From a virus (taxonomy: Duplodnaviria > Caudoviricetes): DNA of 55,013 bases. Position 1 is the first letter of the stretch, and the number at the start of each line of letters is the position of its first letter. The DNA is taken from positions 1 through 55,013 of the IMG/VR virus record IMGVR_UViG_3300022074_000052; one strand, written 5' to 3'. Made by a program: the position numbers and the translations under genes. A model generated the notes under the pieces. The model was not told the origin of the DNA and ran no database searches. It saw only the letters and a list, made by a program, of their open reading frames with translations. Of the stretch, positions 26,758 to 48,022 are shown in pieces.

Positions 26758-28559
26758 CCACATTCTCCATAAGATTTGCCTTTACCCGATTCGCAATCTA
26801 TCGGTAGACCTTCTGCCCACTCAGGTGGTTGGCGCATACATTCTTCGACGTATTTCTGTGCTTCGTCCACCTCTTCGTCTTTGACACAACACGCTATACT
26901 GTCATGCACTGTCAAGACAACTCTGTACCTCTTCGCTATTTGTAACATTTGTTCGCCAATAATGCAACGAGCTATCGCTTGACACACGTTCTCTATTACC
27001 TTACCGCCATATATACGTACGCGACCACGTCGTGTTTTGTAATCAAAGTCATACTTACCATCATCAACAGTAAACTGTAAGTCGTCATAGCGTAGACGCA
27101 AACCAGAGGGTAGTATTATGTCCCACTCTTCCGTGCCTAAGACCCCCTCCTTACCAAAGGCATCCCCATCTTTTAAGAAAAGTTGAGCATTAGCCCATAG
27201 GTCTTTTATGTCTGAGTTTGTTTCTCTGTACACCTGTATAACACGTCGCGCCTCATGTAGCTCCATATCAAACCCAAATGTCTTAAGTTGATTTTGGAAC
27301 TTCTGCGCACCCATGCCATACCCTGCCCCTAAAATCGTGGTCTTACCAACAAATCGTTGGTCTTTTGTTACGAGGCTCTCTGCTACACCATATATTTTAG
27401 ATGCCATATTCTTATATACGTCTTCACCGTTTGCAAACGCTTGGGTCAAATCGTCCTGTTCGGCAAGCCACGCCAATACCCTCGCTTCGATTTGTGCTGA
27501 GTCAGCATCTATTATAGAATATCCTTGTGGTGCAATTATGCCACGCTTTAGCATGTTTGCATTTGCGCCTCGGCTGGGTAAATTTTGTAGATTTATCTTA
27601 TCATCACCGCCCCAACGACCTGTATGTGCCGCATAATATCTAACAGGTACAGGCAATAAGCCACGTTTCGCTATATCGATAAATCTTTGCGTCCGTGTTT
27701 CTTCAAGTGTGCTTTTATTACCCAACCTGGCTGCAACAAGTGATTGAACCCTTACGTCCTGATGTGTTAACAGGTGTTTAAACTTTTCGTCTGACTTAGC
27801 AAAAGCCCATGTCTCCTTGCCTGTGGTGGGGCTTATCTTCTTAGGAGGTGACACATTATATGCAGCAAGCAGCTTTGCAAATTTGTCGTTACTCATCAGA
27901 TCTTCTTTAGACGCACGAGCATCCATAAGTAACTCTTCCTTGTGTTGACGTGTGTTGCTGAGATGATCTTCTAACAAGTCCAAGTTCAGATCCAAAATAG
28001 GCTCTACGAACATACGCAGTGATACGTCAATCAGCTTGAGTTCTTTCTTTGGAAACCCCTTTGCCATGATTGTGAACAAGTCATATGTCAGATCTACGTC
28101 ATTTACAGCATAGTCACCTAGTCGCGCCAATTCTTCGTTAGTAAAGTCCTGCCTGTGTTTATCAAGGGTATTCTGTATCTCGTCACCCTTCTCACCCACA
28201 CCGTATCTTTCTGATAACGCTTTTAACGAAACACTGGTCTCAACTCCATCTACGGCTCTCGCTATACAAACTGTATCAGTATAAGCGCGAGGTTTAATAT
28301 CAAATACCCAAGAGAGGATAGCACCATCAAACATAGTATTGTGAGCCAATACCATCGACTTACTCCAGTTGTACTCTTGTAAGAATGCCTTAAGTTGTTC
28401 CTGCGTACCACTTGCCCACTCCGTCTCTCCGTTGTTAACTTTTATAGCGACCCCAAGCACTTCAAACCTAGGGTCGCGCACGTATTCTTCTGTCGTTAGT
28501 TTCTTTAAAGAATACTCTTTGTTGTAATATGTTTCGAAATCAAGAGTTATTAAGTCCAC
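26754..28559 (-). CDS. polA: DNA polymerase family A with 3'-5' exonuclease
   Basis: Exo LDFET, HNTMFD, YAVND; HTGRW, NLQNLP; motif A DSAQIEARV; motif B RFVGKTTILGAGYG; motif C TVHDS; GTG start behind AGGAG. Confidence 0.93.
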   Translation of the reverse strand: MDLITLDFETYYNKEYSLKKLTTEEYVRDPRFEVLGVAIKVNNGETEWASGTQEQLKAFLQEYNWSKSMVLAHNTMFDGAILSWVFDIKPRAYTDTVCIARAVDGVETSVSLKALSERYGVGEKGDEIQNTLDKHRQDFTNEELARLGDYAVNDVDLTYDLFTIMAKGFPKKELKLIDVSLRMFVEPILDLNLDLLEDHLSNTRQHKEELLMDARASKEDLMSNDKFAKLLAAYNVSPPKKISPTTGKETWAFAKSDEKFKHLLTHQDVRVQSLVAARLGNKSTLEETRTQRFIDIAKRGLLPVPVRYYAAHTGRWGGDDKINLQNLPSRGANANMLKRGIIAPQGYSIIDADSAQIEARVLAWLAEQDDLTQAFANGEDVYKNMASKIYGVAESLVTKDQRFVGKTTILGAGYGMGAQKFQNQLKTFGFDMELHEARRVIQVYRETNSDIKDLWANAQLFLKDGDAFGKEGVLGTEEWDIILPSGLRLRYDDLQFTVDDGKYDFDYKTRRGRVRIYGGKVIENVCQAIARCIIGEQMLQIAKRYRVVLTVHDSIACCVKDEEVDEAQKYVEECMRQPPEWAEGLPIDCESGKGKSYGECG

Positions 28560-28998
28560 TATTCTTCTCCTTCATAGCGCATTCGTATTCAATACCAACG
28601 TACGCCATGTTATCTACGTAGTGATCTTTTTTCAACGGACTTGTCTGTCGCCTTGCTAACTTCGTTGCCTGGTGTACCAGAGTGATGTCTCTCGCTGTAA
28701 GACGTTGTCCTGTGATAGCATTATATATACGTGCGATATGTTCGTGGTTGTCCACAGCATCACCATAGTCTTTATTACGATCTGTAGCTGTGAGGCTCGA
28801 CGCTTCACCAAGTAGCTGACAGCGGACGGGGGGTTTGGACTCTGCTAGGATAACTTCTTTTGGTGTGCCTGATTCATTAATAATCTTCAAAGCATAACCA
28901 TACGATACCTTACACGCTTCTGCTACTTTTCTGGGCGTGTCAAGTCTGTTCTTGAGTATGTACTTCCAAACTCTTTCTCTCTTAGTGTTTGTACGCAT
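28540..28998 (-). CDS. DUF6378-like protein with N-terminal HTH-like segment
   Basis: L.EA..L...DRNKDYG....N...IA..........K.AR......D.YVD...Y. Confidence 0.7.
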   Translation of the reverse strand: MRTNTKRERVWKYILKNRLDTPRKVAEACKVSYGYALKIINESGTPKEVILAESKPPVRCQLLGEASSLTATDRNKDYGDAVDNHEHIARIYNAITGQRLTARDITLVHQATKLARRQTSPLKKDHYVDNMAYVGIEYECAMKEKNSGLNNS

Positions 28999-29108: not shown

Positions 29109-29275
29109 TTCTTCTTACCTTTATTGTTAAACTGGTCAGGTTGAATAAGACCTTTTGCAATGTCACGTCTTATCATGGCTTTGTACTTCTTAATTGTCTC
29201 TGGTTTGAGGTAACGTATTTGCCTTAGTCTTTCATCTTTGGCAATCGGCTTTAATTTAAATCTATCATCTGTCAT
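29105..29275 (-). CDS. Small basic hypothetical protein
   Basis: Not in ORF track; MTDDRFKLKPIAKDERLRQIRYLKPETIKKYKAMIRRDIAKGLIQPDQFNNKGKKK*; ATGA overlaps at both ends. Confidence 0.65.
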   Translation of the reverse strand: MTDDRFKLKPIAKDERLRQIRYLKPETIKKYKAMIRRDIAKGLIQPDQFNNKGKKK

Positions 29276-29499
29276 TTCATAAACTCTGGTTTTGGTAATG
29301 GTATTTTAACCTCGACTATAAAGTTGTCCACCTCTACACAGTTTGCTTTTCCAATTATTGGGTCACGCACTTGTTTTAGGCTCTGCGCTACGTACATGCA
29401 CGTTTCGTGGTCGTGAAAGTGAACCCTGCCCATTTCTATATGGTGGTCTGAAATATCTGGAACTAATAGTAAATGCAATACAAAGTAAGTTGTTTTCAT
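29272..29499 (-). CDS. Hypothetical protein
   Basis: Purine-rich leader AGAAAGAGAGAGAC-ATG; two Cys. Confidence 0.6.
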   Translation of the reverse strand: MKTTYFVLHLLLVPDISDHHIEMGRVHFHDHETCMYVAQSLKQVRDPIIGKANCVEVDNFIVEVKIPLPKPEFMK

Positions 29500-29519
29500 G
29501 TCTCTCTCTTTCTTTAGGT

Positions 29520-29702
29520 TGCCCCCCTTCTAAGAGGGGGGTCTAAGTTTTTACATGCCCTACCATGATGAAGTTACAGGGAAGGATATATGATAAACCT
29601 GCCTTCACCGCAGTGGATTTCGATTAATATGCTTACATGTGTGTCCTCAACGCTCTCACTGCTTACGTCCTACCAAGACAAAAATAATAAAAACTTGGTA
29701 GA
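29520..29702 (-). ncRNA. Candidate structured small RNA (four hairpins, one loop antisense to early-gene RBS)
   Basis: Stems 29670-77/29694-701, 29610-15/29657-62, 29567-80/29598-609 and 29522-27/29536-41; no minus-strand ORF. Confidence 0.5.
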
Positions 29703-30026
29703 TTATTCGTACTGAACTGGGAAGTCCATCTCTTCTATACCTTTGAGTATATTCTCTATATCCATCATGTTCTCTTCGTTAACTACACAGGCGATGCCTC
29801 CCGCTACACCTATGTCTGTTAAGTTCTTATCCTGTAACGGTGTAGGTTTGTTTTTCCCAGCCTTACATTCAAACGCAAAGAAGTTACCTCTATGGCAACC
29901 AACAATATCAGGCACTCCGCTACGTCCATACCCACCTGTGACTGGGTAGAAGTAATACGCTCCTAACTGCTTGAGTTGTTCCGTTACCTTCTTTTTTACT
30001 TTTGCTTCTGGAGTCATCACCATCAT
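29703..30026 (-). CDS. VRR-NUC domain nuclease (Holliday junction resolvase-like)
   Basis: TPEAKVK...GYGRSGVPDIVGC..G.F.AFECKA....PT.LQ; start could be 30017. Confidence 0.85.
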   Translation of the reverse strand: MMVMTPEAKVKKKVTEQLKQLGAYYFYPVTGGYGRSGVPDIVGCHRGNFFAFECKAGKNKPTPLQDKNLTDIGVAGGIACVVNEENMMDIENILKGIEEMDFPVQYE

Positions 30027-30247
30027 TGCTTGCTGTCCTTATCAAAAAACTTTGCGTCCATCCACGCATCAAAGAATGTAGAATATCTACCTACTACCTC
30101 TCCAGTGTTGATAGCATCTGCGTCTGTACATGTTACTGTGAAGTCATCATCACTTTCATCATAATCTATCATGTGCCACTCTGTGTCCATCGGTAACTTT
30201 ACTGTCACCCCATCTTCCTTTATTTGTTTCATAAACTTTCTTTTCAT
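30023..30247 (-). CDS. Hypothetical protein
   Basis: RBS GAGGG; ATGA-coupled to the next gene. Confidence 0.65.
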   Translation of the reverse strand: MKRKFMKQIKEDGVTVKLPMDTEWHMIDYDESDDDFTVTCTDADAINTGEVVGRYSTFFDAWMDAKFFDKDSKQ

Positions 30248-30275
30248 ATCTATCCCTCAAAAAAACTGGTTTCAA

Positions 30276-30301
30276 TGTGGGCAACTCGAAAGCCACCCAC
30301 A
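30276..30301 (-). terminator. Hairpin (possible terminator or processing site)
   Basis: TGTGGG...CCCACA stem just after the stop at 30306; the T7 run is displaced about 10 nt downstream. Confidence 0.4.
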
Positions 30302-30305
30302 CCAT

Positions 30306-30584
30306 TTAGCTTAGTGAACCACTAACCTCTTTTACATAAATATAAAACTCGCTATCGCTTGCTCTATACCCTATCTCTGAATTATACTCTAACATGGGTT
30401 CAAGCATCATCAGCACTACCAACTTATCTTGAACCCACTTAGGTAGATCGTCTACACTGTCATACCACTCTTTTAATTCACTGTCAACACAATACATACC
30501 TAAACATAACACATGAACTCTTTTCGTATTAACATCTATCTTAACTTGGTATAACGTGTAATCCTGTGTGTTACTGTATGACAT
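30306..30584 (-). CDS. Hypothetical protein
   Basis: Likely start MSYSN at 30584; 'Y.SVDDLP.WVQDKL.VL'. Confidence 0.65.
   Translation of the reverse strand: MSYSNTQDYTLYQVKIDVNTKRVHVLCLGMYCVDSELKEWYDSVDDLPKWVQDKLVVLMMLEPMLEYNSEIGYRASDSEFYIYVKEVSGSLS
30309..30327. promoter_or_regulatory. 19-bp palindromic operator-like site 1
   Basis: GCTTAGTGAACCACTAACC. Confidence 0.75.
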
Positions 30585-31422
30585 AAAACATATTGTCTCC
30601 TGCCTTATAGCCCACGTCATCGACAAAGCCTTCACCCTCTAACACGTTAAGAGACATTACCTTACCTTTGATCTCTTCAGGCAGAGTTGCAACAGAGTAC
30701 TCCTCGTAAGGCATATCAGCCCACGACCCTACATAGTTAACATCTTTCGTACACACGATATAGGTTTCGTTACCCCACTTCATGTAAGCATAAACAAAGT
30801 ATAAGTTGAGTTTTTTCTGTTTATCCTCAAACCACTCCTTGCGTTTAGCGACCATCTCTAACACGTTATCATGCAGTTCTTTGTCCAAGAATGTATGTCC
30901 GTTCTCTACTAGGCTTACCAACTCAAGTGCCATCTTCTCTCTGTTGCCACCCTCTAAACCTATCTTATGTTGGCACTCGCTGTAGGCATGCGCGAACTTT
31001 TTACGCACTTGCTCGAACGCCCTATTGATACTTGAATACTCTTTCTGCGCTACCACGCCCCAAGGTATAGGTCTGAGATATGCTTTCGCGTTTCGTATAG
31101 CTTGGTGCATGTTTACAGACATTTTCATATTATAGTTATCGTTGTAGTCAGCATACTTGTCATTGCATATGTTAGGTGATGACACACAAAAGTGTTCGAG
31201 CTGCCTTTCAGCATTTTCTCTTGGGTCGCCAAAGTATAAGCACCCCATAGGATATGGGTGTCCTTCCATATGCACAAACTTGTAATAGTCATTAGTATAT
31301 GTACCAAACTTGATACCTCTAATGGCTTTTCGCACCTCTCTACAAAACTTATCAATAGGTTCGTTCGTAGTCGGTTGGTATTCTGTTAGGTCGTTTACCC
31401 TTATGTCAAATTTTCTATCCAT
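30571..31422 (-). CDS. Hypothetical early protein
   Basis: 283-aa ORF; RBS AAGGAG; C-terminus 'Y....LPEEI..KV..L......VG' resembles the downstream ORF. Confidence 0.75.
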   Translation of the reverse strand: MDRKFDIRVNDLTEYQPTTNEPIDKFCREVRKAIRGIKFGTYTNDYYKFVHMEGHPYPMGCLYFGDPRENAERQLEHFCVSSPNICNDKYADYNDNYNMKMSVNMHQAIRNAKAYLRPIPWGVVAQKEYSSINRAFEQVRKKFAHAYSECQHKIGLEGGNREKMALELVSLVENGHTFLDKELHDNVLEMVAKRKEWFEDKQKKLNLYFVYAYMKWGNETYIVCTKDVNYVGSWADMPYEEYSVATLPEEIKGKVMSLNVLEGEGFVDDVGYKAGDNMFYVIQ

Positions 31423-31618
31423 TACGCTCTCCTTCTCTCTCTATCTTCACGTACTGACGTGTTAGTTTGTGTTTAAAATAATAGTATTCTTTGTCTACGT
31501 GCATGAGCATGTAAAAGTTTTTCATCTGCTCAAACGACCTCTCAAACATCTGCTTCACGTTATCAGGTGTTAGCAAGTCACCGTGTACCACTGCTGTGGC
31601 GTATGTATCATTCTTCAT
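31415..31618 (-). CDS. Hypothetical early protein
   Basis: RBS AAGGAG; overlapping coupling. Confidence 0.65.
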   Translation of the reverse strand: MKNDTYATAVVHGDLLTPDNVKQMFERSFEQMKNFYMLMHVDKEYYYFKHKLTRQYVKIEREGERNG

Positions 31619-31805
31619 TGTACATCTCCTTTCTCCACTTTTTAATTTTGTCTTTTAGTTCGTTAGCATAGATAGTCCTTCCCACAGCAAGTATACTGTC
31701 GTCGGGTTCATCTTCTCTCGTTTTCCATGCCTTATCCAACTCCTTCTCAATCTTCTTGAGTAACTTGTGACAGTCCTCAAGATATACACCACTCCATTTA
31801 GCCAT
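31608..31805 (-). CDS. Hypothetical early protein
   Basis: RBS GGAGGGAG before ATG 31805 (MAKW). Confidence 0.65.
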   Translation of the reverse strand: MAKWSGVYLEDCHKLLKKIEKELDKAWKTREDEPDDSILAVGRTIYANELKDKIKKWRKEMYNEE

Positions 31806-32154
31806 TACTCCCTCCATAATTCATGTAGTCAACAAACCATCGCATGAATGAGTTACAGTTGATGTTAGTTGATACACAACCACACCTAAACTGGTCAGGT
31901 AGAAACCTAAACTCGTACTGCCACTCCATACCCTTGGGGTGATAGAAGTACAAGTCACCTGCACCATAATTTACGTAACCAATTTTACTACGCTCTATAA
32001 CTCTGTGTACTCTCCAAGAAACATGAGCATAGAAAGAACCATCGGGTAATGGGTCGTCTATATCATCTCTACCTCTTGAATACTTGGGTTCGTAAGACAG
32101 TATACGCATCTGCAACGCATGTACCTCTTCTTCACTAAACTTTTTATCAGACAT
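31798..32154 (-). CDS. Hypothetical early protein
   Basis: RBS GGAGGGAG; 118 aa. Confidence 0.7.
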   Translation of the reverse strand: MSDKKFSEEEVHALQMRILSYEPKYSRGRDDIDDPLPDGSFYAHVSWRVHRVIERSKIGYVNYGAGDLYFYHPKGMEWQYEFRFLPDQFRCGCVSTNINCNSFMRWFVDYMNYGGSNG

Positions 32155-32611
32155 CTACTCCCTCCTTCAGTTTTTTAAATGAATCATCGTCGTTAAATAC
32201 TAATACGGCAGGTTCTATTTCCATTCGTTCATCACAAACCTCCTCTAACTCCTTACAGTTCTCGCCCTCGTCTCCACTTGTGGCTCCATCTTCTCCCACA
32301 GTTAGTTCTCTGTAGGCATACTTGAACCCATCTCTTTCCTTGGCAAACTGTTCAACCACTTGGAACAATTTTCGAAACGCTTGCACGTCATCGAACTCGT
32401 CGTACCACTTCACGTAAGTTGTTCGGTACTCCATCATACAATACCCCCCAGTATTACCATCGGGGTCAAACTCACGCTCGTATATTGTCCAATGATTAAA
32501 CACATCTTCTCGTTGCACGTCAGGGTGCATCTTGTACACAGACAAAACTTCTTGTAAGTCATCCCAATCTTTTAGGACAACGACAAGACCAACGTCACTA
32601 TAGTAACCCAT
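32147..32611 (-). CDS. Hypothetical early protein (MGY.SDV type)
   Basis: RBS GGAGG; 'VKWY.E..DV', 'GED' motifs. Confidence 0.7.
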   Translation of the reverse strand: MGYYSDVGLVVVLKDWDDLQEVLSVYKMHPDVQREDVFNHWTIYEREFDPDGNTGGYCMMEYRTTYVKWYDEFDDVQAFRKLFQVVEQFAKERDGFKYAYRELTVGEDGATSGDEGENCKELEEVCDERMEIEPAVLVFNDDDSFKKLKEGVDV

Positions 32612-33549
32612 TACTTCACCTCCTCTGTTCTAGCTTCATGTATGTTCTTGGTAAGACCGAGTGTCTTGTTAACCCATCTGTTCCAACTCACTCTGACCTT
32701 GGACGCATGCTCTTGGTCTTTGACTTCTTGAACTCCTTGATAACCGTATAACGGGCTACCACGTAACCAATCAACAGCAAGATGTAAACGCATGGGGTGT
32801 TTCTCGTCACGCATGATGTTCTTGTACAGTTCTATCTGTTCTTTGTGATATTGCTTTACCCCATACCGATTACTGAAATTATTTATCTTGTTCTCGTTCA
32901 TGTAATCGGTTAACTCTCTCTGCATCTTGTAGTTGTACTCCCAATCATTCACGGGTAACATGGCGTACACAGTTGATATCCACTCGTAGAACTTGTCCGC
33001 ATGAGGTTTAATCTCTGCCTTTGCATCCTTGTTTACTTGGGTCATGGCGTGTCGGAATACGTACTCCTTACCAATGTGTTGCCACGTAGCGTGTTTACGT
33101 GCAAACTGTAGTGACTTACTAATGTCCTTGGGTATATAGAAGTCTTTCTCACCATCGCCTTCCTTTGTCCACTCTCTATCTTCGTCGTAGTTCGTATGTC
33201 TCTGCGTCTTACGATTCATGCTGATGTACTGTCTACCCGAACTGCCAAGAATGAAGAAACGTAGGTCATGAGGTAACAAGTTATCAAGAAACGTGTAACA
33301 ATCGGTATACCCGTTGTTACGTATGGTTATGACTTCGATGTCTTGTTTCATCTCCCACGATACTATCGTGTCACCATTCAGCATCATGTCGTAATGTGTG
33401 TCCGACCTTTTGAGTATGTACTCTCGTCTGCCATACGCTCTGTCACCTATCGGTATGTAATTCGTACCACGTATGGGGTTAGTGTTTGCATACCTTAGAG
33501 ATATGTCTCTGAAATTATTTACTCTGTGATTTGTATGTCTTAATACCAT
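32611..33549 (-). CDS. Hypothetical early protein
   Basis: Probable start ATG 33549 behind GAAAGGATATATC. Confidence 0.75.
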   Translation of the reverse strand: MVLRHTNHRVNNFRDISLRYANTNPIRGTNYIPIGDRAYGRREYILKRSDTHYDMMLNGDTIVSWEMKQDIEVITIRNNGYTDCYTFLDNLLPHDLRFFILGSSGRQYISMNRKTQRHTNYDEDREWTKEGDGEKDFYIPKDISKSLQFARKHATWQHIGKEYVFRHAMTQVNKDAKAEIKPHADKFYEWISTVYAMLPVNDWEYNYKMQRELTDYMNENKINNFSNRYGVKQYHKEQIELYKNIMRDEKHPMRLHLAVDWLRGSPLYGYQGVQEVKDQEHASKVRVSWNRWVNKTLGLTKNIHEARTEEVK

Positions 33550-33572
33550 GATATATCCTTTCAATTGGTAAA

Positions 33573-33591
33573 GGTTAGTGAGTCACTAACC
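33573..33591. promoter_or_regulatory. 19-bp palindromic operator-like site 2 (perfect palindrome)
   Basis: GGTTAGTGAGTCACTAACC, intergenic. Confidence 0.8.
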
Positions 33592-33593
33592 AC

Positions 33594-34802
33594 TTAAAGA
33601 TTTTCTGACTTGACGTGTAACGTCTTGCCAACTTTTGAATGAGTGTTCTTGTTATCCAAGATTACCCATAGTGTAGGGCAAGCCCACTTACCCCACGAAC
33701 CACCCAAGTAACCATCTGTTAGAACAATAGTTGCTTGGGGTTTGATACCATGCTCTGCCATATATTCGGGAACGCATGATACTTCTGTGCCACCACCTCC
33801 ACGTGGTTTTGTGGATTGTGGTAGGTCATCTAGCTTGTCCATCTCATACACCTCGTCACGACATACCTGTGTATCCCAGTAAAGTACACGTACCTTGCTA
33901 GGTTTTACTGTGTCGCATATGCCTTTGACTTCTGACAGGAACGTGGTCAACTCTCGCTGACCAATAGAACCTGATGTGTCGATAGCCAATACCAGTTCCT
34001 CGACCTTCTCCGATATGCCACTAGGCATTATCAAGTCTAGGTGTAGATACCGTCTGTTAGGTTTGTTGTATGTTGAGAAGTCACCACCTGCGCATGTATC
34101 GGTGATGAAGTCACGCAACACTTCACGCCAGTTGACTTGTGGTTCTAGAAATTGTTCGAGTGTCCTATCGCCACCTGACCCAGTCTTCCCTGCGACCAAC
34201 GCACCCTGACGTATTACGTCGTCAATATCCTTCGCCAGTTCTTTCTGTTCCTCGTCGGATATGCCTTGTGCATCTTCCCAACCGTGATCGTCCAGTGGCT
34301 TACCACCTTGACCATCGTTAGGCTGACCACCACCTTGCTTTTTCTTTTTGTACAAAGCATTGAATATCTCTGGAACACTCATGTTAGCATACTCTTCGCT
34401 GTAACAACCTATAGTCAACGCACCAGTCATAGTTGCAAACTTGTCGTCTTTGTTGTCCTCGACGAGCTTGTGGTTTATCCAGAAGTCACACGCCATGTTC
34501 GCGCACTCTGGGTCTGTCTTATGCAAGCCATAGTATATGTGTAGATGACGTGCTAACTTGTGATAGTTCTCATGCAATACCAAAAACCGTAGCTCTGGGT
34601 CGTTCAAGCTATCACAGAAACCACGACCATAACTCTCGTCGCGTCCGTTGGTGCAAGCAGTAGGAATGTCATCTCTGACACTCCTATTACCAATGGCAAG
34701 TAGTCCTGCTAGTGCAATGTACTTGTCGTTCATCATGATATCTGATACTGCCTTCTGTAGTCGCTGTTCGACAGTAAGATTTTGTTTAATCAATAGGTTC
34801 AT
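33594..34802 (-). CDS. DUF2201-type metallopeptidase plus vWA domain protein
   Basis: TACTNG, LHENYH (HExxH), N.ACD..IN; MIDAS DTSGS; GGGGT, LTDG; start MNLL at 34802 behind AAAGGAG. Confidence 0.85.
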   Translation of the reverse strand: MNLLIKQNLTVEQRLQKAVSDIMMNDKYIALAGLLAIGNRSVRDDIPTACTNGRDESYGRGFCDSLNDPELRFLVLHENYHKLARHLHIYYGLHKTDPECANMACDFWINHKLVEDNKDDKFATMTGALTIGCYSEEYANMSVPEIFNALYKKKKQGGGQPNDGQGGKPLDDHGWEDAQGISDEEQKELAKDIDDVIRQGALVAGKTGSGGDRTLEQFLEPQVNWREVLRDFITDTCAGGDFSTYNKPNRRYLHLDLIMPSGISEKVEELVLAIDTSGSIGQRELTTFLSEVKGICDTVKPSKVRVLYWDTQVCRDEVYEMDKLDDLPQSTKPRGGGGTEVSCVPEYMAEHGIKPQATIVLTDGYLGGSWGKWACPTLWVILDNKNTHSKVGKTLHVKSENL

Positions 34803-35008
34803 GTTTTCTCCTTTCCTATCTTCTCTACTTTTATTGACAGTAAATCTTTCCAACTGTGGGTCGGGTGATATACTGGGTGGTCAAGAAACAATCTGCGTAT
34901 GTGTCTCCTACGTATAGCCTTCGCGGGGTCAACTTCATGTTTCTGACATAACGAGTCAAAGTGTATTAACCACTCTTCGAACTTCGGTCCGATTAACCTA
35001 CTACTCAT
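34799..35008 (-). CDS. Small hypothetical protein
   Basis: Between ATPase and vWA genes; G-rich RBS; ATGA-coupled to the vWA gene. Confidence 0.55.
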   Translation of the reverse strand: MSSRLIGPKFEEWLIHFDSLCQKHEVDPAKAIRRRHIRRLFLDHPVYHPTHSWKDLLSIKVEKIGKEKT

Positions 35009-35017
35009 TCACGCCCC

Positions 35018-36115
35018 CTATCTCTTGTCTGCTTGATAAAGATGTTGGTTCTTCGTCGCCCACTCTGTGAACTTAGCGTTAGTCATTACGATAGATTGAT
35101 GCTGATAGTTCTTGGCACGAACACCGTTAACGAATATGGATTGCACCTCTTCATCTAGTCTAACAAGATACTCCATGAACGGTGTCACAAAGTCTCTGCT
35201 CATAGAACCAAGCGAACGAAAGATAACCATGACCTTGGCACTTACGCTATCAGGTATCTTCGCTGTCTGTGGACTGTTCTTGATATCGTCACGGCTAGGC
35301 AACTGACCAAGCAGTTTGACGTATGCCATCAAGTCCAATGCACCACGTTCGCCAATCGTACCAATCAATGCTGACGTTAGTATGTTGTCTCCTAACGTGT
35401 CACGCTTGTGTACCAAGTCGCTTGCTATGTGCAGACCACGTGGCGTAACAAACGCTGTACGCTGTTGATTGGGGTGAAAGATGTATGGGTTGTCGTCTGG
35501 GTTCTTTACTTCTTCGAACGAGTGAAACAACTGTGGTGTGTCTTTCGCCCAACCAAGAACTGACGAGTTGATGCCATTGTTTAGACCCCACGCTAGCCAC
35601 TCTGTGTTTGTAGACTTACGTACGGTGATAAGAACTATCCTGTCACGTTGATGTGCTTCAAGCATATCGCCCACACCTTCGGAACCTTTGTTCGTTGTAC
35701 CAAAGATAATACTGTCTGGGTGTAACGTGTTATTGCCCAACTGTCTTTCTAGTACCAACCTGGTTAACGCCATCTTCACCGACTTGTTTGCTTTACCAAA
35801 CTCGTCGAGGTCAATGATTACTGGCTTGTCCTTGATGTGCAAACCAAACTCTTCATTCGGTACGAACGATACGTAGTCTTGGTCGCCATTCGCTTTGAAC
35901 TTCGGCATCATGATATCGCCCAAGTCTTTGGTAGTGCAGTCAACGTAGCACGGTATGTGATTGGGTAGTTCCTTGGCTAGCATCTTCAATACTGAAGATT
36001 TGCCATTACCCATGTCACCTTGTAACAAGACAGTACGCTGTGTACCGATTTGAAGTATGAGATCTTTACACTCTTCAAGACCGAGTGCGTATGTTGCTTT
36101 TCCTATGTTTTGCAT
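35018..36115 (-). CDS. MoxR-like AAA+ ATPase
   Basis: Walker A GDMGNGKS, Walker B IDLDE, TTN, TPR; adjacent to the vWA partner. Confidence 0.85.
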   Translation of the reverse strand: MQNIGKATYALGLEECKDLILQIGTQRTVLLQGDMGNGKSSVLKMLAKELPNHIPCYVDCTTKDLGDIMMPKFKANGDQDYVSFVPNEEFGLHIKDKPVIIDLDEFGKANKSVKMALTRLVLERQLGNNTLHPDSIIFGTTNKGSEGVGDMLEAHQRDRIVLITVRKSTNTEWLAWGLNNGINSSVLGWAKDTPQLFHSFEEVKNPDDNPYIFHPNQQRTAFVTPRGLHIASDLVHKRDTLGDNILTSALIGTIGERGALDLMAYVKLLGQLPSRDDIKNSPQTAKIPDSVSAKVMVIFRSLGSMSRDFVTPFMEYLVRLDEEVQSIFVNGVRAKNYQHQSIVMTNAKFTEWATKNQHLYQADKR

Positions 36116-36138
36116 AATATATCCTTTCTATGCGTTAG

Positions 36139-36157
36139 GGTTAGTGAACCACTAACC
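36139..36157. promoter_or_regulatory. 19-bp palindromic operator-like site 3
   Basis: GGTTAGTGAACCACTAACC, intergenic. Confidence 0.8.
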
Positions 36158-36159
36158 GA

Positions 36160-37047
36160 TTACCAACCAAGTGATTTGATTGAATTGATTGCGTCATCAA
36201 CACTTTGCTTTGTGTTCTGACGTAGCCTATCATCCTCGCGTAGTGCGTCGGGTGATATACCTTGGAACGTGTCTGACAACTGACGTGTCAACGTTTGTAG
36301 CCTTGCGTCTTGGTTCGACATGGGAACAAGCAAGTCTTCGAGCATACCTGTAATATTAGTCGTTAGGGTATCACGGAATACTTTCTTGTCCTCGTCGGTA
36401 GAGTAGTCTAGACGCTCGGATACGTTCTTCAAATAGACAACAAGTTTCTGCATCATGTTATCGATAGCCTTACCGAACATAGAGTTGTAGTGATTGTCGT
36501 AATCTTCACGCAATGCTTTCTCTTGCTCGTTGCCCATATCCACACGGAAGTCACCACTTGTCGGAAGTGGTACAAAACTCATTCGCCATGAGAACTTGCC
36601 TTGTAACACGTGAGCAGGTGGATAGTTGTCTTGGTGGTACAAGTCCCCTAGTAACGTCTGTGCGTTGACCACTGCGTCCTCATAGATATCAAAGAAGACA
36701 TTGACCAAGTTGTGAAACTCTTGCTCCAAGTTAGTCATGTGTTGCTTGTACTTGAAGAACGTAGCTGTAGGTAGCAGACGCATACCCATGTCTGACCAAG
36801 GTAGTGTCATGGCATAGTGCTGATTACGTGCATTGCCAACAAACTGTTGAATAGCTTTCAGTTCGGGGCAGTTACCCAACAACTTCTTATGAACACTCGC
36901 CACGTTAGGGTCGGTCTTCTTTGCCAACTCTAGTTCTGTCGATGCGTTCTTGTCTTGCTTGCGACCCGTCCAGACAGATGCGTTATATTCGACCAACATA
37001 GCAGAACTTGTTATGCTTGGTGCAGATGTTTCGATTTTGTTTTCCAT
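36160..37047 (-). CDS. DUF3150-like protein
   Basis: 'WTGRKQD...TLPWSD.G.RLLP...F...Y....LGDL....YP......KF'; start MENK at 37047 behind GGAGG. Confidence 0.6.
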   Translation of the reverse strand: MENKIETSAPSITSSAMLVEYNASVWTGRKQDKNASTELELAKKTDPNVASVHKKLLGNCPELKAIQQFVGNARNQHYAMTLPWSDMGMRLLPTATFFKYKQHMTNLEQEFHNLVNVFFDIYEDAVVNAQTLLGDLYHQDNYPPAHVLQGKFSWRMSFVPLPTSGDFRVDMGNEQEKALREDYDNHYNSMFGKAIDNMMQKLVVYLKNVSERLDYSTDEDKKVFRDTLTTNITGMLEDLLVPMSNQDARLQTLTRQLSDTFQGISPDALREDDRLRQNTKQSVDDAINSIKSLGW

Positions 37048-37051
37048 GTTA

Positions 37052-37369
37052 TTAACCTCCAAAGATTGCCCATAGTAGTATGCCAAAACCTAGCATACCG
37101 ATGAATAAAGCCATAAGGCTCACGAACTCGGCAAACATTGCCAAGAACTTATTTTCAATATCGTCGATTGATTTACCGTTGAGACGCATACCGAAAAATC
37201 TGTCAGACCTTCTGTCTTGTTCGAGTAGGTCGGGTAAACTCTTTATGAACTCCATCTCTTTCTTGGCTTTCGTTAGTGACTCACTAACCTCTTCACCTGC
37301 GTCGAACTGGATAATTCTATCGTCTTGCTCGACTTCCTTGATGTAATTTTCTGTTGGTTTATTTGTCAT
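37052..37369 (-). CDS. Hypothetical membrane protein (C-terminal TM)
   Basis: Start MTNK at 37369 behind AAGGAG; hydrophobic C-terminus. Confidence 0.65.
   Translation of the reverse strand: MTNKPTENYIKEVEQDDRIIQFDAGEEVSESLTKAKKEMEFIKSLPDLLEQDRRSDRFFGMRLNGKSIDDIENKFLAMFAEFVSLMALFIGMLGFGILLWAIFGG
37271..37289. promoter_or_regulatory. 19-bp palindromic operator-like site 4 (intragenic)
   Basis: CGTTAGTGACTCACTAACC. Confidence 0.75.
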
Positions 37370-37379
37370 ATCTTTCTCC

Positions 37380-37637
37380 TTAGTTACTTGTTTTGTTGTT
37401 GATGCCAACAAGGTCACTCTTACGAGTTACCACGACGTAGTTGGACTTGTGTACTGGCGCTATACAATACTTCACTTTACGTGCTATCGACTCACCACAT
37501 GATAGGCAAACGTTGTAGCCAAGAGCCGCACGTCGAGGGTCGAACTCGTCACCACAGTTTTCACATGGTATGCTTAGTGAATCACTAACCCACTTGCCAG
37601 TGTCGGGGTTGATGAACTTGTAGAACTTACTGGTCAT
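37380..37637 (-). CDS. C4 zinc-finger protein (DksA/TraR-like finger)
   Basis: CENCGDEFDPRRAALGYNVCLSC; first gene after a consensus promoter. Confidence 0.65.
   Translation of the reverse strand: MTSKFYKFINPDTGKWVSDSLSIPCENCGDEFDPRRAALGYNVCLSCGESIARKVKYCIAPVHKSNYVVVTRKSDLVGINNKTSN
37572..37590. promoter_or_regulatory. 19-bp palindromic operator-like site 5 (intragenic)
   Basis: GCTTAGTGAATCACTAACC. Confidence 0.75.
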
Positions 37638-37681
37638 AATTTGTATCCTTCTAAAAATTTACTCTTTTTTGATTATGACTT

Positions 37682-37710
37682 ATTATAGCATATATACCCT
37701 AACTTGTCAA
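37682..37710 (-). promoter_or_regulatory. Consensus sigma70 early promoter with extended -10
   Basis: Minus strand TTGACA-17 nt-TATAAT with TG at -15/-14. Confidence 0.85.
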
Positions 37711-37988
37711 GTAATACCGAGATTTTACTTTTGGTATTATCAAATTAAGTTTTACGTTACTTACTAAGCTACGGTGTAATGTACTGTAATGTACTCGAAT
37801 GTTCTGTTGTGTACGTCTGTAAGTATTTGATATTATTACAATGTTCTAATGTTCTCTTTTTTGGGGAATTGTGAAGGGGTGGCGGAACGTCTGTAAGAGG
37901 GCGAACATTACATACGCAAAGGTCGGTCGAGAGAATGTTGTCGCTCAATTTTTTAAAAATAGAACATTATATATATATATATAATATA

Positions 37989-38007
37989 GGTTAGTTATTC
38001 ACTAACC
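37989..38007. promoter_or_regulatory. 19-bp palindromic operator-like site 6
   Basis: GGTTAGTTATTCACTAACC, adjacent to the (TA)n run. Confidence 0.7.
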
Positions 38008-38016
38008 CTATGCTAT

Positions 38017-38046
38017 CAGATGTCACCAGATGTCACCAGATGTCAC
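38017..38046 (+). repeat. Perfect 10-bp tandem repeat x3
   Basis: CAGATGTCAC CAGATGTCAC CAGATGTCAC. Confidence 0.95.
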
Positions 38047-38250
38047 AAAAATATAATGTACGTTTTACCCTAAAAAAAAGCGAACATTGCGGAACATTGC
38101 AAAGATAAAAACGAACATTACACCTAGGCTCGACGCTACATAGAAAACTGGCTTCAAAAGGTTAGGCACTAAGCTACATGCTTCAGCAGAAACAGAAAAC
38201 TGGTATCTATCTAACTGGTTTCATATAACTGGCATCAAAAATTTGGACAC

Positions 38251-38282
38251 AAAAAAAGCCACCTAAGTTTCCCTAGGTGGCT
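38251..38282 (-). terminator. Intrinsic terminator after 38298..38978
   Basis: Minus strand GCCACCTAG-GGAAAC-TTAGGTGGC-TTTTTTT. Confidence 0.85.
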
Positions 38283-38298
38283 TAGTGATTGACTAACC
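38280..38298. promoter_or_regulatory. 19-bp palindromic operator-like site 7
   Basis: GCTTAGTGATTGACTAACC, between stop codon and terminator. Confidence 0.7.
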
Positions 38299-38978
38299 TA
38301 CTTGTTTGTTGGGACAGTTATTCGCTGTCTCATAGTCTCTTTTGCCATTGTTAACTGCTTTATGATATTGTCTACATTGGCAAACGTAGTGTCTTTTCTG
38401 TTTTTGATCTTGTTAATCATAATACCTAATGTCTTTATCTGACTATCTTCAAAAGGTAGATTAGGAACTGGGGTAGTTTCTGCTCTTAACCAACCAACCA
38501 ACTTTTTTCTTACTGTGGTTTGTTGCTTGTTCCAGTAATCGAACATTCCCTTATCTTCATTAGATAGTTGAGATTTTCTTTCGTCTCCTGTCATGCAGTA
38601 GATACCATGAATTTTCTTGCCCATGCTTTGGAACATCATATCTTTAATGAATAATGCTTGTTCCACATTGGCAGTACAATTCTCATTGCTTACTTCAAGT
38701 TTGGTAATATCGAAGTGTTGCGGATTTTCAACTGTCACTAACTTACCCTCGGCAGTTCTAGTCTTGAACTTAGGTTCGAAAGCATCAGACTGTTTAAATC
38801 CTAACTTCTTAACAAGTGTATCCTTAACAAACTGCTTTCCAGTCTCGAAAGCTCTATCACTTTCTTCTTTCTTTCTCTCCCCAGTTAGAATGTAAGTGCA
38901 AGCCTCAATAAGTGCAGAGCTTGTTTTATCGTTGATTTGAAAAGAGTTTGTTTTGATTATGTTTGTTTGCTTGTTCAT
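38298..38978 (-). CDS. Hypothetical protein, stand-alone early transcription unit
   Basis: Own promoter, RBS AAAGGA and terminator; flanked by two palindromic sites. Confidence 0.75.
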   Translation of the reverse strand: MNKQTNIIKTNSFQINDKTSSALIEACTYILTGERKKEESDRAFETGKQFVKDTLVKKLGFKQSDAFEPKFKTRTAEGKLVTVENPQHFDITKLEVSNENCTANVEQALFIKDMMFQSMGKKIHGIYCMTGDERKSQLSNEDKGMFDYWNKQQTTVRKKLVGWLRAETTPVPNLPFEDSQIKTLGIMINKIKNRKDTTFANVDNIIKQLTMAKETMRQRITVPTNK

Positions 38979-39013
38979 GATTATATCCTTTATTAAACAA
39001 GTTTAAGTTAACA

Positions 39014-39032
39014 GGTTAGTGAAACACTAACC
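39014..39032. promoter_or_regulatory. 19-bp palindromic operator-like site 8
   Basis: GGTTAGTGAAACACTAACC, downstream of the promoter at 39069-39096. Confidence 0.8.
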
Positions 39033-46499: not shown

Positions 46500-47408
46500 A
46501 TGGCAATTTCTAGAGCGCAACTTCTTAAAGAGCTACTTCCTGGTCTTAATGCACTATTCGGTTTAGAGTATGCAAAATACGGGGAAGAACACGCGGAGGT
46601 CTTTGAATCAGAGACTTCTGATCGTTCTTTTGAAGAAGAAACTAAACTATCAGGCTTTTCTGCTGCACCAGTCAAAGACGAAGGTTCTGCCATCGAATAT
46701 GACAATGCACAGGAAGCATTCACAGCTCGCTACACACACGAAACAGTGGCGATGGGCTTCGCAATTACTGAGGAGGCTATCGAAGATAACTTGTATGACT
46801 CTTTGTCAGCACGTTATACAAAAGCACTAGCTCGTGCAATGGCGTACACTAAGCAGGTAAAAGCAGCAACTATTCTAAACAATGCTTTTGACTCTGGTAC
46901 TACTTACGGAGATGGAGTGGAGCTTTGTTCTACTGCGCATCCATTAGTGAGTGGTGGAACTAACTCTAACGAACCATCAGTAGCTGCTGATCTTAACGAG
47001 ACTTCTTTGGAAGCCGCAGTTATTCAGATCGCAGGTTGGACTGATGAAAGAGGACTTCTCATTGCAGCGAGACCTCGAAAGTTAGTGATCCCACCGAATC
47101 TACAGTTTGTGGCAACAAGATTGTTAGAAACTGAAGGTAGAGTAGGAACTGCGGATAACGACCTTAATGCACTACGCAATAATGGTTCTATCCCAGAAGG
47201 CTATACTATCAATCACTATTTGACTGATACAGACGCTTTCTTCCTACTAACGGATGTACCAAACGGTCTTAAGCACTTTACACGTAGTCCAATGGCTACG
47301 TCTATGGATGCTGACTTTGATACAGGCAATAGCAGATACAAGGCTAGAGAGAGATACTCTTTCGGTGTATCTGATCCATTAGGAATCTTTGGTTCCCCAG
47401 GAGCCTAA
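46500..47408 (+). CDS. Major capsid protein
   Basis: MAISRAQLLKELLPGLNALFGLEY...K.EG..I.YD...DFDTGN.RYKARERYSFG.SDP.G.FGSPGA; strong RBS AGGAGG; followed by a terminator. Confidence 0.9.
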   Translation: MAISRAQLLKELLPGLNALFGLEYAKYGEEHAEVFESETSDRSFEEETKLSGFSAAPVKDEGSAIEYDNAQEAFTARYTHETVAMGFAITEEAIEDNLYDSLSARYTKALARAMAYTKQVKAATILNNAFDSGTTYGDGVELCSTAHPLVSGGTNSNEPSVAADLNETSLEAAVIQIAGWTDERGLLIAARPRKLVIPPNLQFVATRLLETEGRVGTADNDLNALRNNGSIPEGYTINHYLTDTDAFFLLTDVPNGLKHFTRSPMATSMDADFDTGNSRYKARERYSFGVSDPLGIFGSPGA

Positions 47409-47457: not shown

Positions 47458-47515
47458 ACGCTTACCTTGACAATCACATAGTGTGATTGACTTCAGCCAC
47501 GACAAGGAGGTTCAC

Positions 47516-48022
47516 ATGGCTAACACTACATTCGCAGGCCCTATTAGGTCTGAAAGTACAATTAAAACAATCAGTAAAAATTCATCTACTGGCACAATAA
47601 CAGAAGTTATTACTATGGGTGACGCACCAGTTGCATTAGGTGATGAAGATAAAACACTTGATAATGCAACACATAGTGGGAGAGTTCTTGCTGTGCCAGC
47701 ACTTGCATCTAATAGAACAATAACATTGCCAGCACCAGTTGCAGGAGCTACGTTTAAGTTTATCTATGCGGGAGCAGCAGAAGAAGCAGAAAACTTGATT
47801 ATTATCACTCCTGGTAATACTAATTTTTTCCTAGGAAATGTTCAGCATTTAGATACCAACGCAGATAATGTCAGTGTGTATGCAAACGGTAGTTCTAACT
47901 CAAAGTTAACATTAACTGATTTTGGAAGCATGGAAATAAATATAGTAGCTAAAGACAGCACAAATTACTATATTTGGGGTAACGTAGTCTCTGAAGATGC
48001 GCCAGCTTTTGCTGACCAGTAA
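47516..48022 (+). CDS. Virion protein (head fibre/decoration-like)
   Basis: Start MANTTFAGPIRS at 47516 behind AAGGAGG; 'TITLPAP.AG..FKF' beta domain. Confidence 0.7.
   Translation: MANTTFAGPIRSESTIKTISKNSSTGTITEVITMGDAPVALGDEDKTLDNATHSGRVLAVPALASNRTITLPAPVAGATFKFIYAGAAEEAENLIIITPGNTNFFLGNVQHLDTNADNVSVYANGSSNSKLTLTDFGSMEINIVAKDSTNYYIWGNVVSEDAPAFADQ

What the first reader, a model, noticed from the sequence alone, without database searches (positions are those of the whole stretch)
29520..29702. Structured intergenic RNA whose exposed loop is antisense to the early-gene ribosome-binding sites
Seen: the 200-nt gap at the early/replication boundary folds on the minus strand into four hairpins. 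One has a 12-bp bulged stem (GGTGAAG-GCAGG / CCTGT-aa-CTTCATC) that closes as drawn with G-U pairs on this strand and displays the loop UUUAUCAUAUAUCCUUC. AUAUAUCCUU is the exact complement of AAGGAUAUAU in the RBS of genes starting at 33549 (33551-60) and 36115 (36117-26). It matches 9 nt at 38978 (38982-90) and 8 nt at 37637. The first three genes also have a 19-bp palindrome just upstream. Established: phage antisense RNAs such as P1 C4 act through exposed loops on RBS regions. Inference: a trans-acting sRNA that switches off a class of early genes, forming a combined operator-plus-sRNA circuit.
Basis: partly seen in the sequence, partly recalled or inferred. Interest (0 to 1): 0.8.

Follow-up and report, generated by a model that had tools for sequence, protein, structure and literature searches.

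The report
Conserved folded RNA before replication genes
The 200-base gap in this uncultured marine phage encodes a strongly conserved, multi-helix RNA that sits directly in front of the DNA-replication genes and matches no catalogued RNA family; its proposed role as an antisense switch against early genes is possible but not shown.

Summary
The hairpins, the 17-nt loop and the 10-nt complement to two early ribosome-binding sites are all at the stated places. It was found in 69 of 69 element-bearing loci (39 distinct sequences). 99.1% of cells are paired, 12 pairs changed on both sides, and 0 of 500 shuffles reached this. It has no Rfam match and no real match in prokaryote genomes. It also occurs in a second phage type that shares almost no proteins with this one, there in front of integrase, primase and helicase. 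No promoter or terminator flanks it on its own strand. The conserved block runs up to the next gene's start codon. The antisense idea is weakly supported. Complementarity is marginal against shuffles. Foreign loops pair about as well as own loops. The distant clade pairs only at Shine-Dalgarno level, and the second phage type lacks the motif. However, the loop is tightly constrained within the near clade, and one sub-clade shows a matching double change. Best reading: a cis-acting leader of the replication operon. The trans-acting role remains a live minority reading.

The parts
29670..29701 (-). P1 hairpin, starting 1 nt after the stop codon of ORF 29703-30026. It has an 8-bp stem (29701-29694 with 29677-29670) and a U-rich loop of variable length.
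   Evidence: Covariation: four of its eight pairs changed on both sides in 7-9 of 23 sequences. G-U wobbles fall on this strand.
29647..29670 (-). Invariant 24-mer spanning the P1/P2 junction, the 5' strand of P2 and the conserved 5' side of the P2 inner loop.
   Evidence: Unique in the window even with 3 mismatches allowed. Identical or nearly so in all clades. Diversity is 0 over its inner-loop part (alignment columns 19-22) in all 39 distinct sequences.
29610..29662 (-). P2 long-range helix: 29662-29657 with 29615-29610, plus 29655-29654 with 29617-29616. It encloses a distal part of variable sequence and length, which is absent in the second phage type.
   Evidence: 99% of cells are paired. 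5 of 8 pairs never vary, and one changed on both sides (L026).
29568..29608 (-). The loop is 29597-29581. It has an invariant G-U pair and a 2-nt bulge at 29575-29574.
   Evidence: 8 of 11 pairs changed on both sides and 99.5% of cells are paired. Loop diversity is 0.028 within the near clade and 0.593 over all sequences.
29554..29567 (-). P3b, a 4-bp hairpin with a 6-nt purine-rich loop, directly abutting P3.
   Evidence: 2 of 4 pairs changed on both sides and 100% of cells are paired.
29542..29553 (-). Conserved A-rich single-stranded linker between P3b and P4.
   Evidence: It is nearly invariant in all clades. Any role as an RNase site or triplex strand is inference only.
29522..29541 (-). 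P4, a G+C-rich hairpin. Its sequence, length and loop differ between clades, but a hairpin is always present. No U-run follows it on this strand.
   Evidence: read directly. One search shows it is terminator-like on the + strand only.
29497..29521 (-). Purine-rich ribosome-binding tract and ATG of ORF 29272-29499. It is conserved together with the element even where the downstream gene differs.
   Evidence: L003, L005, L010, L029 and L031 carry other downstream genes but the same tract. It is predicted single-stranded.
33551..33560 (-). Candidate target 1: ribosome-binding site of the gene starting at 33549, a 10-nt complement of the P3 loop.
   Evidence: Pairing is predicted only.
36117..36126 (-). 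Candidate target 2: ribosome-binding site of the ATPase gene starting at 36115, a 10-nt complement.
   Evidence: Pairing is predicted only.
38982..38990 (-). Candidate target 3: ribosome-binding site of the gene starting at 38978, a 9-nt complement.
37644..37651 (-). Candidate target 4: ribosome-binding site of the gene starting at 37637, an 8-nt complement.

Best explanation
The gap encodes a conserved, multi-helix RNA domain (P1, P2, P3, P3b, an A-rich linker and P4). It is transcribed as part of the minus-strand operon, between the small nuclease-like gene (29703-30026) and the first gene of the DNA-replication block.

I read it as a cis-acting leader. Its invariant core (the P1/P2 junction, the P2 hairpin and the base of P3) binds something that two unrelated phage lineages both meet. 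That could be host machinery such as the ribosome, RNA polymerase or an RNase, or it could be a small molecule. Through this binding the core sets translation, processing or stability of the mRNA that starts at P4 and the open purine-rich ribosome-binding tract.

The apical loop of P3 is a lineage-specific accessory. Its pyrimidine core is the complement of a Shine-Dalgarno sequence, so it pairs with many ribosome-binding sites.

Shown: the RNA structure and its strand, its position, its spread, and the lack of its own promoter or terminator signals.
Inferred: that it acts in cis, the nature of the partner, and the output.
For: 1. Structure under selection on the minus strand.
- 39 distinct sequences give 99.1% paired cells and 12 pairs changed on both sides. 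0 of 500 shuffles reached this. Slid controls gave 29-51% paired. MAFFT/RNAalifold gave the same helices.
- By my count from the table, 98 of 995 cells are G-U pairs, including one pair that is G-U in all 38 sequences that have letters there. On the other strand these would be A-C mismatches.

2. Pattern typical of ligand- or factor-binding RNAs.
- Junctions and the P2 hairpin are invariant. The peripheral loops (P1 loop, P2 distal part, P4 loop) vary freely in sequence and length.

3. Embedded in the operon.
- P1 begins 1 nt after the upstream stop codon.
- The conserved block runs through the ribosome-binding tract to the ATG. It stays the same where the downstream gene is replaced.
- There is no promoter-like or terminator-like site on the minus strand in the gap.
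- A hairpin with a T-run lies about 600 nt upstream (30264-30301). The element therefore sits inside the next transcription unit.

4. Same position in an unrelated phage type.
- In L090, L100, L130, L143, L159 and L160 it lies directly upstream of integrase, Toprim primase and DnaB-like helicase.
- Of 72 window proteins, only 2 give any tblastn match there, and only in L100: the DUF6378 protein at E 1.6e-10 and a stretch of the 1078-aa protein at E 6.6e-6.
- This argues against a phage-protein partner. It favours a universal partner or a self-contained activity.

5. One copy per genome. R1 finds only this site in the window.

6. The ribosome-binding tract is predicted open.
Against: - No alternative pairing that would hide or free the ribosome-binding site is conserved. 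Loop-to-own-site complementarity is 7-8 nt in the distant clade and in L022/L029, but 4 nt or less in the window's own clade (read by eye; duplex energy -2.5 kcal/mol).
- No ligand, protein or cleavage was tested.
- The tight constraint on the P3 loop within the near clade is not explained by a purely cis model.
- Expression data are contigs only. They show neither ends nor strand.
- The immediately downstream gene is not conserved, so classic autogenous control by that product is unlikely.
Confidence: 0.45

Rival explanations
1. The RNA, made on its own or cut out of the operon transcript, acts in trans. Its P3 loop pairs with the ribosome-binding sites of the first cistrons of the early region and shuts off their translation once the middle operon is transcribed.
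For: - Exact 10-nt complement at two sites, plus 9-nt and 8-nt matches at two more. All four are first cistrons behind palindromes.
- The loop is predicted unpaired, with probability 0.97.
- The same site type and the same loop are kept throughout near-clade genomes whose early genes have diverged to 39-80% identity.
- Loop diversity is 0.028 within the near clade against 0.289 for the P2 distal part, but 0.593 between clades. That is the pattern of a lineage-specific address.
- In variants with a rebuilt 5' half of the loop (L002, L017), the half complementary to the sites is the part that is kept.
- In L132 both orthologous sites and the loop changed together at one position, keeping 9 and 7 nt.
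- One loop variant (L019) extends the match to 13 nt.
Against: - No promoter or terminator of its own.
- Cross-clade matrix: the own loop does no better than foreign loops in 5 of 5 genomes outside the near clade. Foreign loops reach 8-12 nt on near-clade genomes.
- The distant clade shows only 5-7 nt on the two orthologous sites.
- The loop of the second phage type lacks the motif.
- Shuffle tests are marginal, 1.8-8.8%.
- A late gene and two middle genes pair as well energetically. One late gene (2255) has an 11-nt chance complement.
- The 13-nt variant is not linked to the site type. Other genomes have the same site but the common loop.
Confidence: 0.22
2. A processing element. It would be either a self-cleaving ribozyme of an undescribed class or a host-RNase site at the A-rich linker. 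Cutting would separate the upstream mRNA from the replication mRNA and leave P4 as a protective 5' hairpin.
For: - Invariant junction nucleotides, compact abutting helices and an intercistronic position.
- A conserved A-rich single strand lies between two hairpins, followed by a G+C-rich hairpin in every clade.
- Presence in unrelated phages fits a self-contained activity.
Against: - No match to any ribozyme family of Rfam 15, even at E up to 10.
- No cleavage data.
- RNase III or RNase E sites usually lack such invariant single-stranded sequence (general knowledge, recalled).
Confidence: 0.12
3. An RNA that acts on RNA polymerase in cis, by put-like processive antitermination or pausing, so that transcription runs through the 10-kb replication operon.
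For: - It lies early in a long operon, behind an upstream terminator-like hairpin.
- It is a conserved two-domain hairpin array with invariant internal nucleotides.
- Neither a T7-type RNA polymerase nor an integrase was found in the window record, which is 89% complete. The phage probably depends on host polymerase. The control for PF00940 rang nowhere, so that absence is weak.
Against: - No sequence or model similarity to any known antiterminator RNA in Rfam.
- No terminators were mapped downstream.
- The ribosome-binding tract being part of the conserved block points to translation rather than elongation.
Confidence: 0.08
4. A DNA-level site, such as a replication origin, attachment site or protein operator, rather than an RNA.
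For: - The invariant 24-mer is unique in the genome.
- In the second phage type the element is adjacent to an integrase gene.
- It lies at the boundary of the replication module.
Against: - Compensatory changes with many G-U pairs on one strand only.
- No real copy in 185,579 species genomes. The exact 18-mer scan gave 20 hits where about 35 are expected by chance, and none shows further similarity (5 of the 20 were also scanned with R1).
- No integrase in the window record.
Confidence: 0.04
5. A small + strand ORF (29590-29715, 41 aa) with its own Shine-Dalgarno-like sequence. That would explain why the + strand carries the 10-mer.
For: The ORF is listed. The 10-mer on the + strand ends in the ORF's ATG.
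Against: - The ATG lies in the P3 loop and is absent in relatives with other loops.
- Loop lengths differ by non-multiples of 3: 17, 24, 28 and 13 nt.
- The spacing from the Shine-Dalgarno-like core to the ATG is only 3 nt.
Confidence: 0.01

Closest known systems
C4 antisense RNA of phages P1 and P7 (Rfam has a C4 family; its mechanism is recalled, not read here)
   Same: A phage RNA whose exposed loop sequences are complementary to a target that includes a ribosome-binding site. C4 is processed out of a longer transcript, which a trans model would also require here.
   Different: There is no match to any Rfam family, C4 included, at E up to 10. Here there is one candidate loop, many candidate targets and a much larger conserved core. 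The complementarity does not track between clades.
Translational operators in leaders of phage replication genes (T4 gene 32 pseudoknot, T4 gene 43 hairpin; recalled) and the candidate gp32/gp20 leaders of Fremin et al. 2023 (PMC10690425; abstract, outline and section 2.4 read)
   Same: A structured leader directly upstream of the ribosome-binding site of replication genes, followed by an open tract.
   Different: The downstream gene is not conserved. The element is shared by phages with no shared replication proteins, so autogenous protein control is unlikely. Sequence and fold are unrelated as far as Rfam can tell.
Riboswitch leaders in general
   Same: Invariant junction nucleotides, covarying stems, peripheral loops of variable length, a 5' leader position, and occurrence in unrelated genomes.
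   Different: No match to any known class. No conserved switching helix or terminator. No ligand is known.
put RNAs of phage HK022 (recalled)
   Same: A cis-acting hairpin array inside an operon transcript that acts without a phage protein.
   Different: No similarity was detected. A link to translation signals is more evident here.
sRNAs derived from intercistronic regions or UTRs, and phage-encoded sRNAs (search listings only: bioRxiv 10.1101/2024.10.31.621285, PMC12197685)
   Same: A regulator could be cut from an mRNA without a promoter of its own.
   Different: No evidence here for a stable processed species.

Membership tests
Conserved structured RNA (general criterion) | Helices kept by compensatory changes across diverged sequences, beyond the controls | tested here: met
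   99.1% paired, 12 of 26 pairs changed on both sides, 0 of 500 shuffles, slid controls 29-51%. Searches used an alignment not fitted to the model.
Any Rfam 15 family (C4, riboswitches, ribozymes, leaders, phage RNAs) | Covariance-model match at the gathering score, or at least a weak one | tested here: not met
   the only gathering-score hit in the window is Mu-gpT-DE at 47465-47518; at E up to 10 the gap gives only three chance-level hits, the best being 26.7 bits against a cut-off of 54.
tRNA / tmRNA | ARAGORN detection | tested here: not met
   0 genes in the window.
Stand-alone trans-acting sRNA gene | Own promoter upstream and intrinsic terminator downstream on the RNA's strand | tested here: not met
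   no promoter-like or terminator-like site on the minus strand within 29500-29702. Only sigma-70-type promoters and intrinsic terminators are covered by this scan.
Stand-alone trans-acting sRNA gene | A discrete stable transcript | not testable with these tools
   laid contigs only. Contigs from RNA libraries of two studies cover 29536-29683 and 29534-29676, but contigs cannot show ends, strand or level.
Antisense regulator of the early ribosome-binding sites (C4-like mode of action) | Loop and target sequences co-vary in relatives | tested here: inconclusive
   One matching double change in L132. Constancy of both partners in the near clade. No excess of own loops over foreign loops. Only 5-7 nt in the distant clade. 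The motif is absent in the second phage type.
Intrinsic terminator | G+C-rich hairpin followed by a U-run on the transcribed strand | tested here: not met
   P4 qualifies on the + strand only. P1 has no U-run after it.
Attachment site carrying a host RNA gene fragment | Identity of the core with a host genome sequence | tested here: not met
   20 exact 18-mer hits in 596 billion bases, about the number expected by chance, and none with flanking similarity; no integrase in the window record.
Riboswitch | Ligand-dependent structural switch | not testable with these tools
   This needs in-line probing or SHAPE with candidate ligands.
Self-cleaving ribozyme | Site-specific self-cleavage in vitro | not testable with these tools
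   This needs a transcription and cleavage assay.

The most novel reading that the evidence does not exclude
This is a new class of phage RNA, exchanged between or convergently kept by unrelated marine phages at the head of their replication modules. Its invariant core is a riboswitch, a ribozyme or a binder of host translation or transcription machinery. Its apical loop is a programmable anti-ribosome-binding-site address. Once the middle operon is transcribed, that loop silences the first cistrons of the early region. This would be an RNA-only counterpart of the protein-based early shut-off known from T4 (RegA, RegB; recalled).
Probability: 0.2. Interest if true: 0.85.

Novelty: new variant of a known kind. 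Interest (0 to 1): 0.6.

Why it matters
- Well-supported new structured RNA families with this much covariation are rare.
- This one sits at the early-to-replication switch of an abundant, uncultured group of marine phages. Every contig that holds it is marine by its run labels or contig names.
- It is also shared with a phage type that has almost no proteins in common with this one. That points to a function tied to the host or to the RNA itself.
- If the core binds a metabolite or host machinery, it would be a new handle on how phages time replication-gene expression.
- If the loop does act in trans, it would be an RNA-based early shut-off.
- Either way, the covariance model built here gives a concrete object for in vitro probing.

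Tried and rejected
- Single-sequence folding gave no signal.
- The DNA search of the phage collection with 29200-30100 found nothing. By PolA protein the closest named phages are only 34-36% identical: Rhizobium phage RHph_TM3_14A and Pseudomonas phage KPP25. No cultured relative could therefore be used.
- R1 found no element in 0 of 35 loci of more distant PolA relatives (52-67% identity, L044-L080 without L051 and L055). Some of these contigs may not reach the site.
- The + strand ORF reading was rejected (see rivals).
- A sigma-70-like pair inside the P2 distal part of the window was rejected, because that part is deleted or replaced in relatives.
- By eye I tried several pairings. These were the P3 loop with the own ribosome-binding tract, with the purine run in the invariant 24-mer, and with the P3b loop. 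I also tried a preQ1-like pseudoknot of P3b with the A-rich linker. None holds in all clades.
- RNA libraries: one search and one laying gave contigs only.
  - X13 and X14 come from two studies. Each holds a roughly 150-nt contig covering the conserved core (29536-29683 and 29534-29676).
  - X1 and X2 cover parts of the flanks.
  - Contig ends coincide with the variable P1 and P4 loops, where assembly graphs branch between strains. I therefore draw no conclusion on transcript ends, strand or level.
  - Uncovered parts mean nothing.
- Literature searches surfaced no description of this element. Fremin et al. 2023 (PMC10690425) predicted 10,006 candidate structured RNAs from IMG/VR. I read its abstract, outline and section 2.4.
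- PF00940 searches are uninformative, because the control rang nowhere.

Full report
**Setting.**
- The window is a 55-kb virus record, 89% complete by CheckV. It has no close cultured relative. The DNA search of the phage collection found nothing. The best named PolA relatives are 34-36% identical.
- Genes from about 39000 down to 19408 run on the minus strand. First comes an early block of mostly unknown genes, which includes an ATPase and an HNH-type gene. Then comes a replication block with PolA, an exonuclease, a helicase, a Gp2.5-like SSB and a primase.
- The gap 29500-29702 lies between a 107-aa nuclease-like ORF and a 75-aa ORF, about 1 kb upstream of PolA. The nuclease-like ORF has a weak Hjc match.

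**The observation.**
The 9-nt and 8-nt matches and the 19-bp palindromes are there too.
- A single-sequence fold is not better than shuffles: z is -0.65 on the minus strand and -1.9 on the plus strand. The case for structure has to come from comparison.

**What is really there.**
- With PolA as query I fetched 80 related viral loci. 31 of the 80 contain the gap's most conserved 24-mer with at most 4 changes. Many of the others end before the site.
- The gap is better conserved than the flanking genes. Its alignment shows five helices kept by compensatory changes:
  - P1, starting 1 nt after the upstream stop codon.
  - A long-range P2, enclosing a variable distal part.
  - P3b, a 4-bp hairpin abutting P3.
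  - P4, a G+C-rich hairpin 22 nt before the ATG.
- A clade with only about 73% PolA identity has entirely different P1 and P4 stem sequences, but the same architecture and the same invariant junction.
- An exact 18-mer scan found 37 viral stretches, of which 36 are real and 1 is a chance hit. A longer pattern found 41 metagenome stretches.
- In 596 billion bases of species genomes the 18-mer gave 20 hits. I expect about 35 by chance (my arithmetic). None shows any flanking similarity. I scanned 5 of the 20 with the covariance model, and only one chance-level hit came up.
- A covariance model of the core (R1, 126 positions, 26 pairs) matches 69 of 69 element-bearing sources, which hold 39 distinct sequences.
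  - On that alignment 99.1% of 995 cells are paired and 12 of 26 pairs changed on both sides.
  - 0 of 500 shuffles reached the observed values. Sliding the partners gave 29-51% paired.
  - That alignment is fitted to the model. The unfitted alignment gave 99.2% and the same counts.
- By my count from the table, 98 cells are G-U pairs. One pair is G-U in all 38 sequences that have letters there.
- Rfam 15 has nothing at this site, even at E up to 10. ARAGORN finds nothing. R1 finds one copy per genome and none in 35 more distant PolA relatives.

**A second, unrelated carrier.**
- Six loci (L090, L100, L130, L143, L159, L160) carry a shortened version. It lacks the P2 distal part and has a different P3 loop. 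Its R1 scores are 83-93 bits.
- In L100 the element lies directly upstream of a tyrosine integrase, a Toprim primase and a DnaB-like helicase. It lies behind a cytosine methylase, a cell-wall hydrolase and a small ORF.
- Of 72 proteins called in the window, only two have any tblastn match in five of these loci (L090, L100, L130, L143, L160), and both matches lie in L100. They are the DUF6378 protein (E 1.6e-10) and a stretch of the 1078-aa protein (E 6.6e-6).
- The same RNA core thus heads the replication genes of two otherwise unrelated phage types. This argues against a phage-encoded protein partner. It favours a host factor, a small ligand or an activity of the RNA itself.

**Is it a separate gene?**
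- No sigma-70-type promoter and no intrinsic terminator lie on the minus strand in the gap. P4 reads as a terminator on the + strand only.
- A hairpin with a T-run lies about 600 nt upstream, at 30264-30301. Behind it come a conserved short motif and the first cistron at 30247. The same arrangement recurs in relatives. The element therefore sits inside the next operon.
- The conserved block extends through the purine-rich ribosome-binding tract to the ATG. It is kept unchanged where the downstream gene is a different one, as in L003, L005, L010, L029 and L031.
- The tract is predicted single-stranded.
- These points make a cis-acting leader the simplest reading. An RNA cut out of the operon transcript cannot be excluded.

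**Testing the antisense idea.**
- (a) Chance.
  - I kept the pyrimidine core fixed and shuffled the rest of the loop 5000 times. 8.8% of shuffles gave at least one of the 17 early genes a complement of 10 nt or more. 1.8% gave at least two such genes. 3.5% gave at least three genes with 9 nt or more.
  - The observed sites are near-copies of one cassette.
  - A late gene (2255) has an 11-nt complement by chance.
- (b) Energy.
  - The four proposed targets give -9.7 to -10.8 kcal/mol. So do a late gene (10817, -11.2) and two middle genes (30247, -10.5; 22904, -10.3). These are seven of the top seven among 72 genes.
  - The loop behaves as a general complement of Shine-Dalgarno-type sites.
- (c) Relatives.
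  - In near-clade genomes both the loop and the special site type are kept. Their early genes have diverged, the ATPase to 75-80% identity and the 33549 homologue to 39-65%.
  - In L132, the only long contig of a sub-clade with another loop, the two orthologous sites and the loop differ from the window's at matching positions. They still give 9 and 7 nt (read by eye).
  - In the distant clade the same two orthologues give 5-7 nt, which is the Shine-Dalgarno core only.
  - A matrix of 11 loop types against all called early ribosome-binding sites of 12 genomes shows no advantage of the own loop. Near-clade genomes give 10, 10, 9 with the own loop and 8-12 with foreign loops that carry the same core. 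The five genomes outside the near clade give 6-9 with the own loop and up to 12 with foreign ones. A loop without the core gives 5-9.
  - The loop of the second phage type lacks the core. It has only 8-9-nt matches, of a kind expected in A+T-rich DNA.
  - Within the near clade (15 distinct sequences) the loop has a diversity of 0.028. The P2 distal part has 0.289 and the P3b loop 0.111. Over all sequences the loop has 0.593.
  - In the distant clade only the half of the loop that holds the pyrimidine core is kept (0.159 against 0.48).
  - The loop sequence therefore matters in a lineage-specific way, which a purely structural role does not explain.

**Expression.**
- RNA libraries of two studies hold roughly 150-nt contigs covering the conserved core (29536-29683 and 29534-29676). 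Two oligo-dT libraries hold parts of the flanks.
- These are contigs. They show presence in RNA libraries, not transcript ends, strand or level. Their ends fall at the strain-variable P1 and P4 loops, where assemblies branch.

**Verdict.**
- The gap holds a new, strongly supported structured RNA family. It is not in Rfam 15. Whether it is among the 10,006 unnamed candidates of PMC10690425 cannot be checked here.
- My most likely reading (0.45) is a cis-acting leader of the replication operon. Its invariant core would bind host machinery or a small ligand.
In that model an anti-ribosome-binding-site RNA shuts off early genes. It is supported by the constraint on the loop and one matching double change. 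It is weakened by the generic nature of the complementarity and by its absence in two of the three main clades.
- Processing or ribozyme (0.12), polymerase-directed (0.08) and DNA-site (0.04) readings remain.

Noticed in passing
window 47465-47518 (+): The only Rfam gathering-score hit in the window is the Mu-gpT-DE RNA (60.8 bits). It lies just downstream of the 302-aa ORF 46500-47408.
   Followed up: no
window 30309-39032 (minus strand) and relatives L004, L019, L020, L085, L094, L099, L132, L144, L151: The 19-bp palindromes in front of first cistrons change sequence between related phages. They stay palindromic and keep the same outer bases. They are either hairpins or operators co-evolving with their binder.
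   Followed up: partly
window 30264-30301 (minus strand): A hairpin with a T-run, then a short conserved motif, precedes the first cistron (30247) of the operon that carries the RNA element. The same arrangement precedes that operon in relatives, in some of them directly before the nuclease-like gene. It is a possible terminator plus middle-promoter module.
   Followed up: partly
whole window, gene starts: There are two ribosome-binding-site classes. Internal and late cistrons use GGAG-type or GA-repeat sites.
   Followed up: partly
window 28540-28998 (-) and L100 1415-1639: The DUF6378 protein is the one clearly matching protein between the window phage and the second phage type that carries the RNA element (E 1.6e-10).
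   Followed up: no
L040, L042 (gene after the element); L003, L005, L010, L029; L031: The gene directly downstream of the element is replaced in several relatives, while the element and its ribosome-binding tract stay the same. The start codon looks like a recombination boundary.
   Followed up: partly
window 2229-2257 (+): Late gene 2255 has an 11-nt complement to the P3 loop across its start codon. I take it as a chance match and use it as a yardstick.
   Followed up: yes
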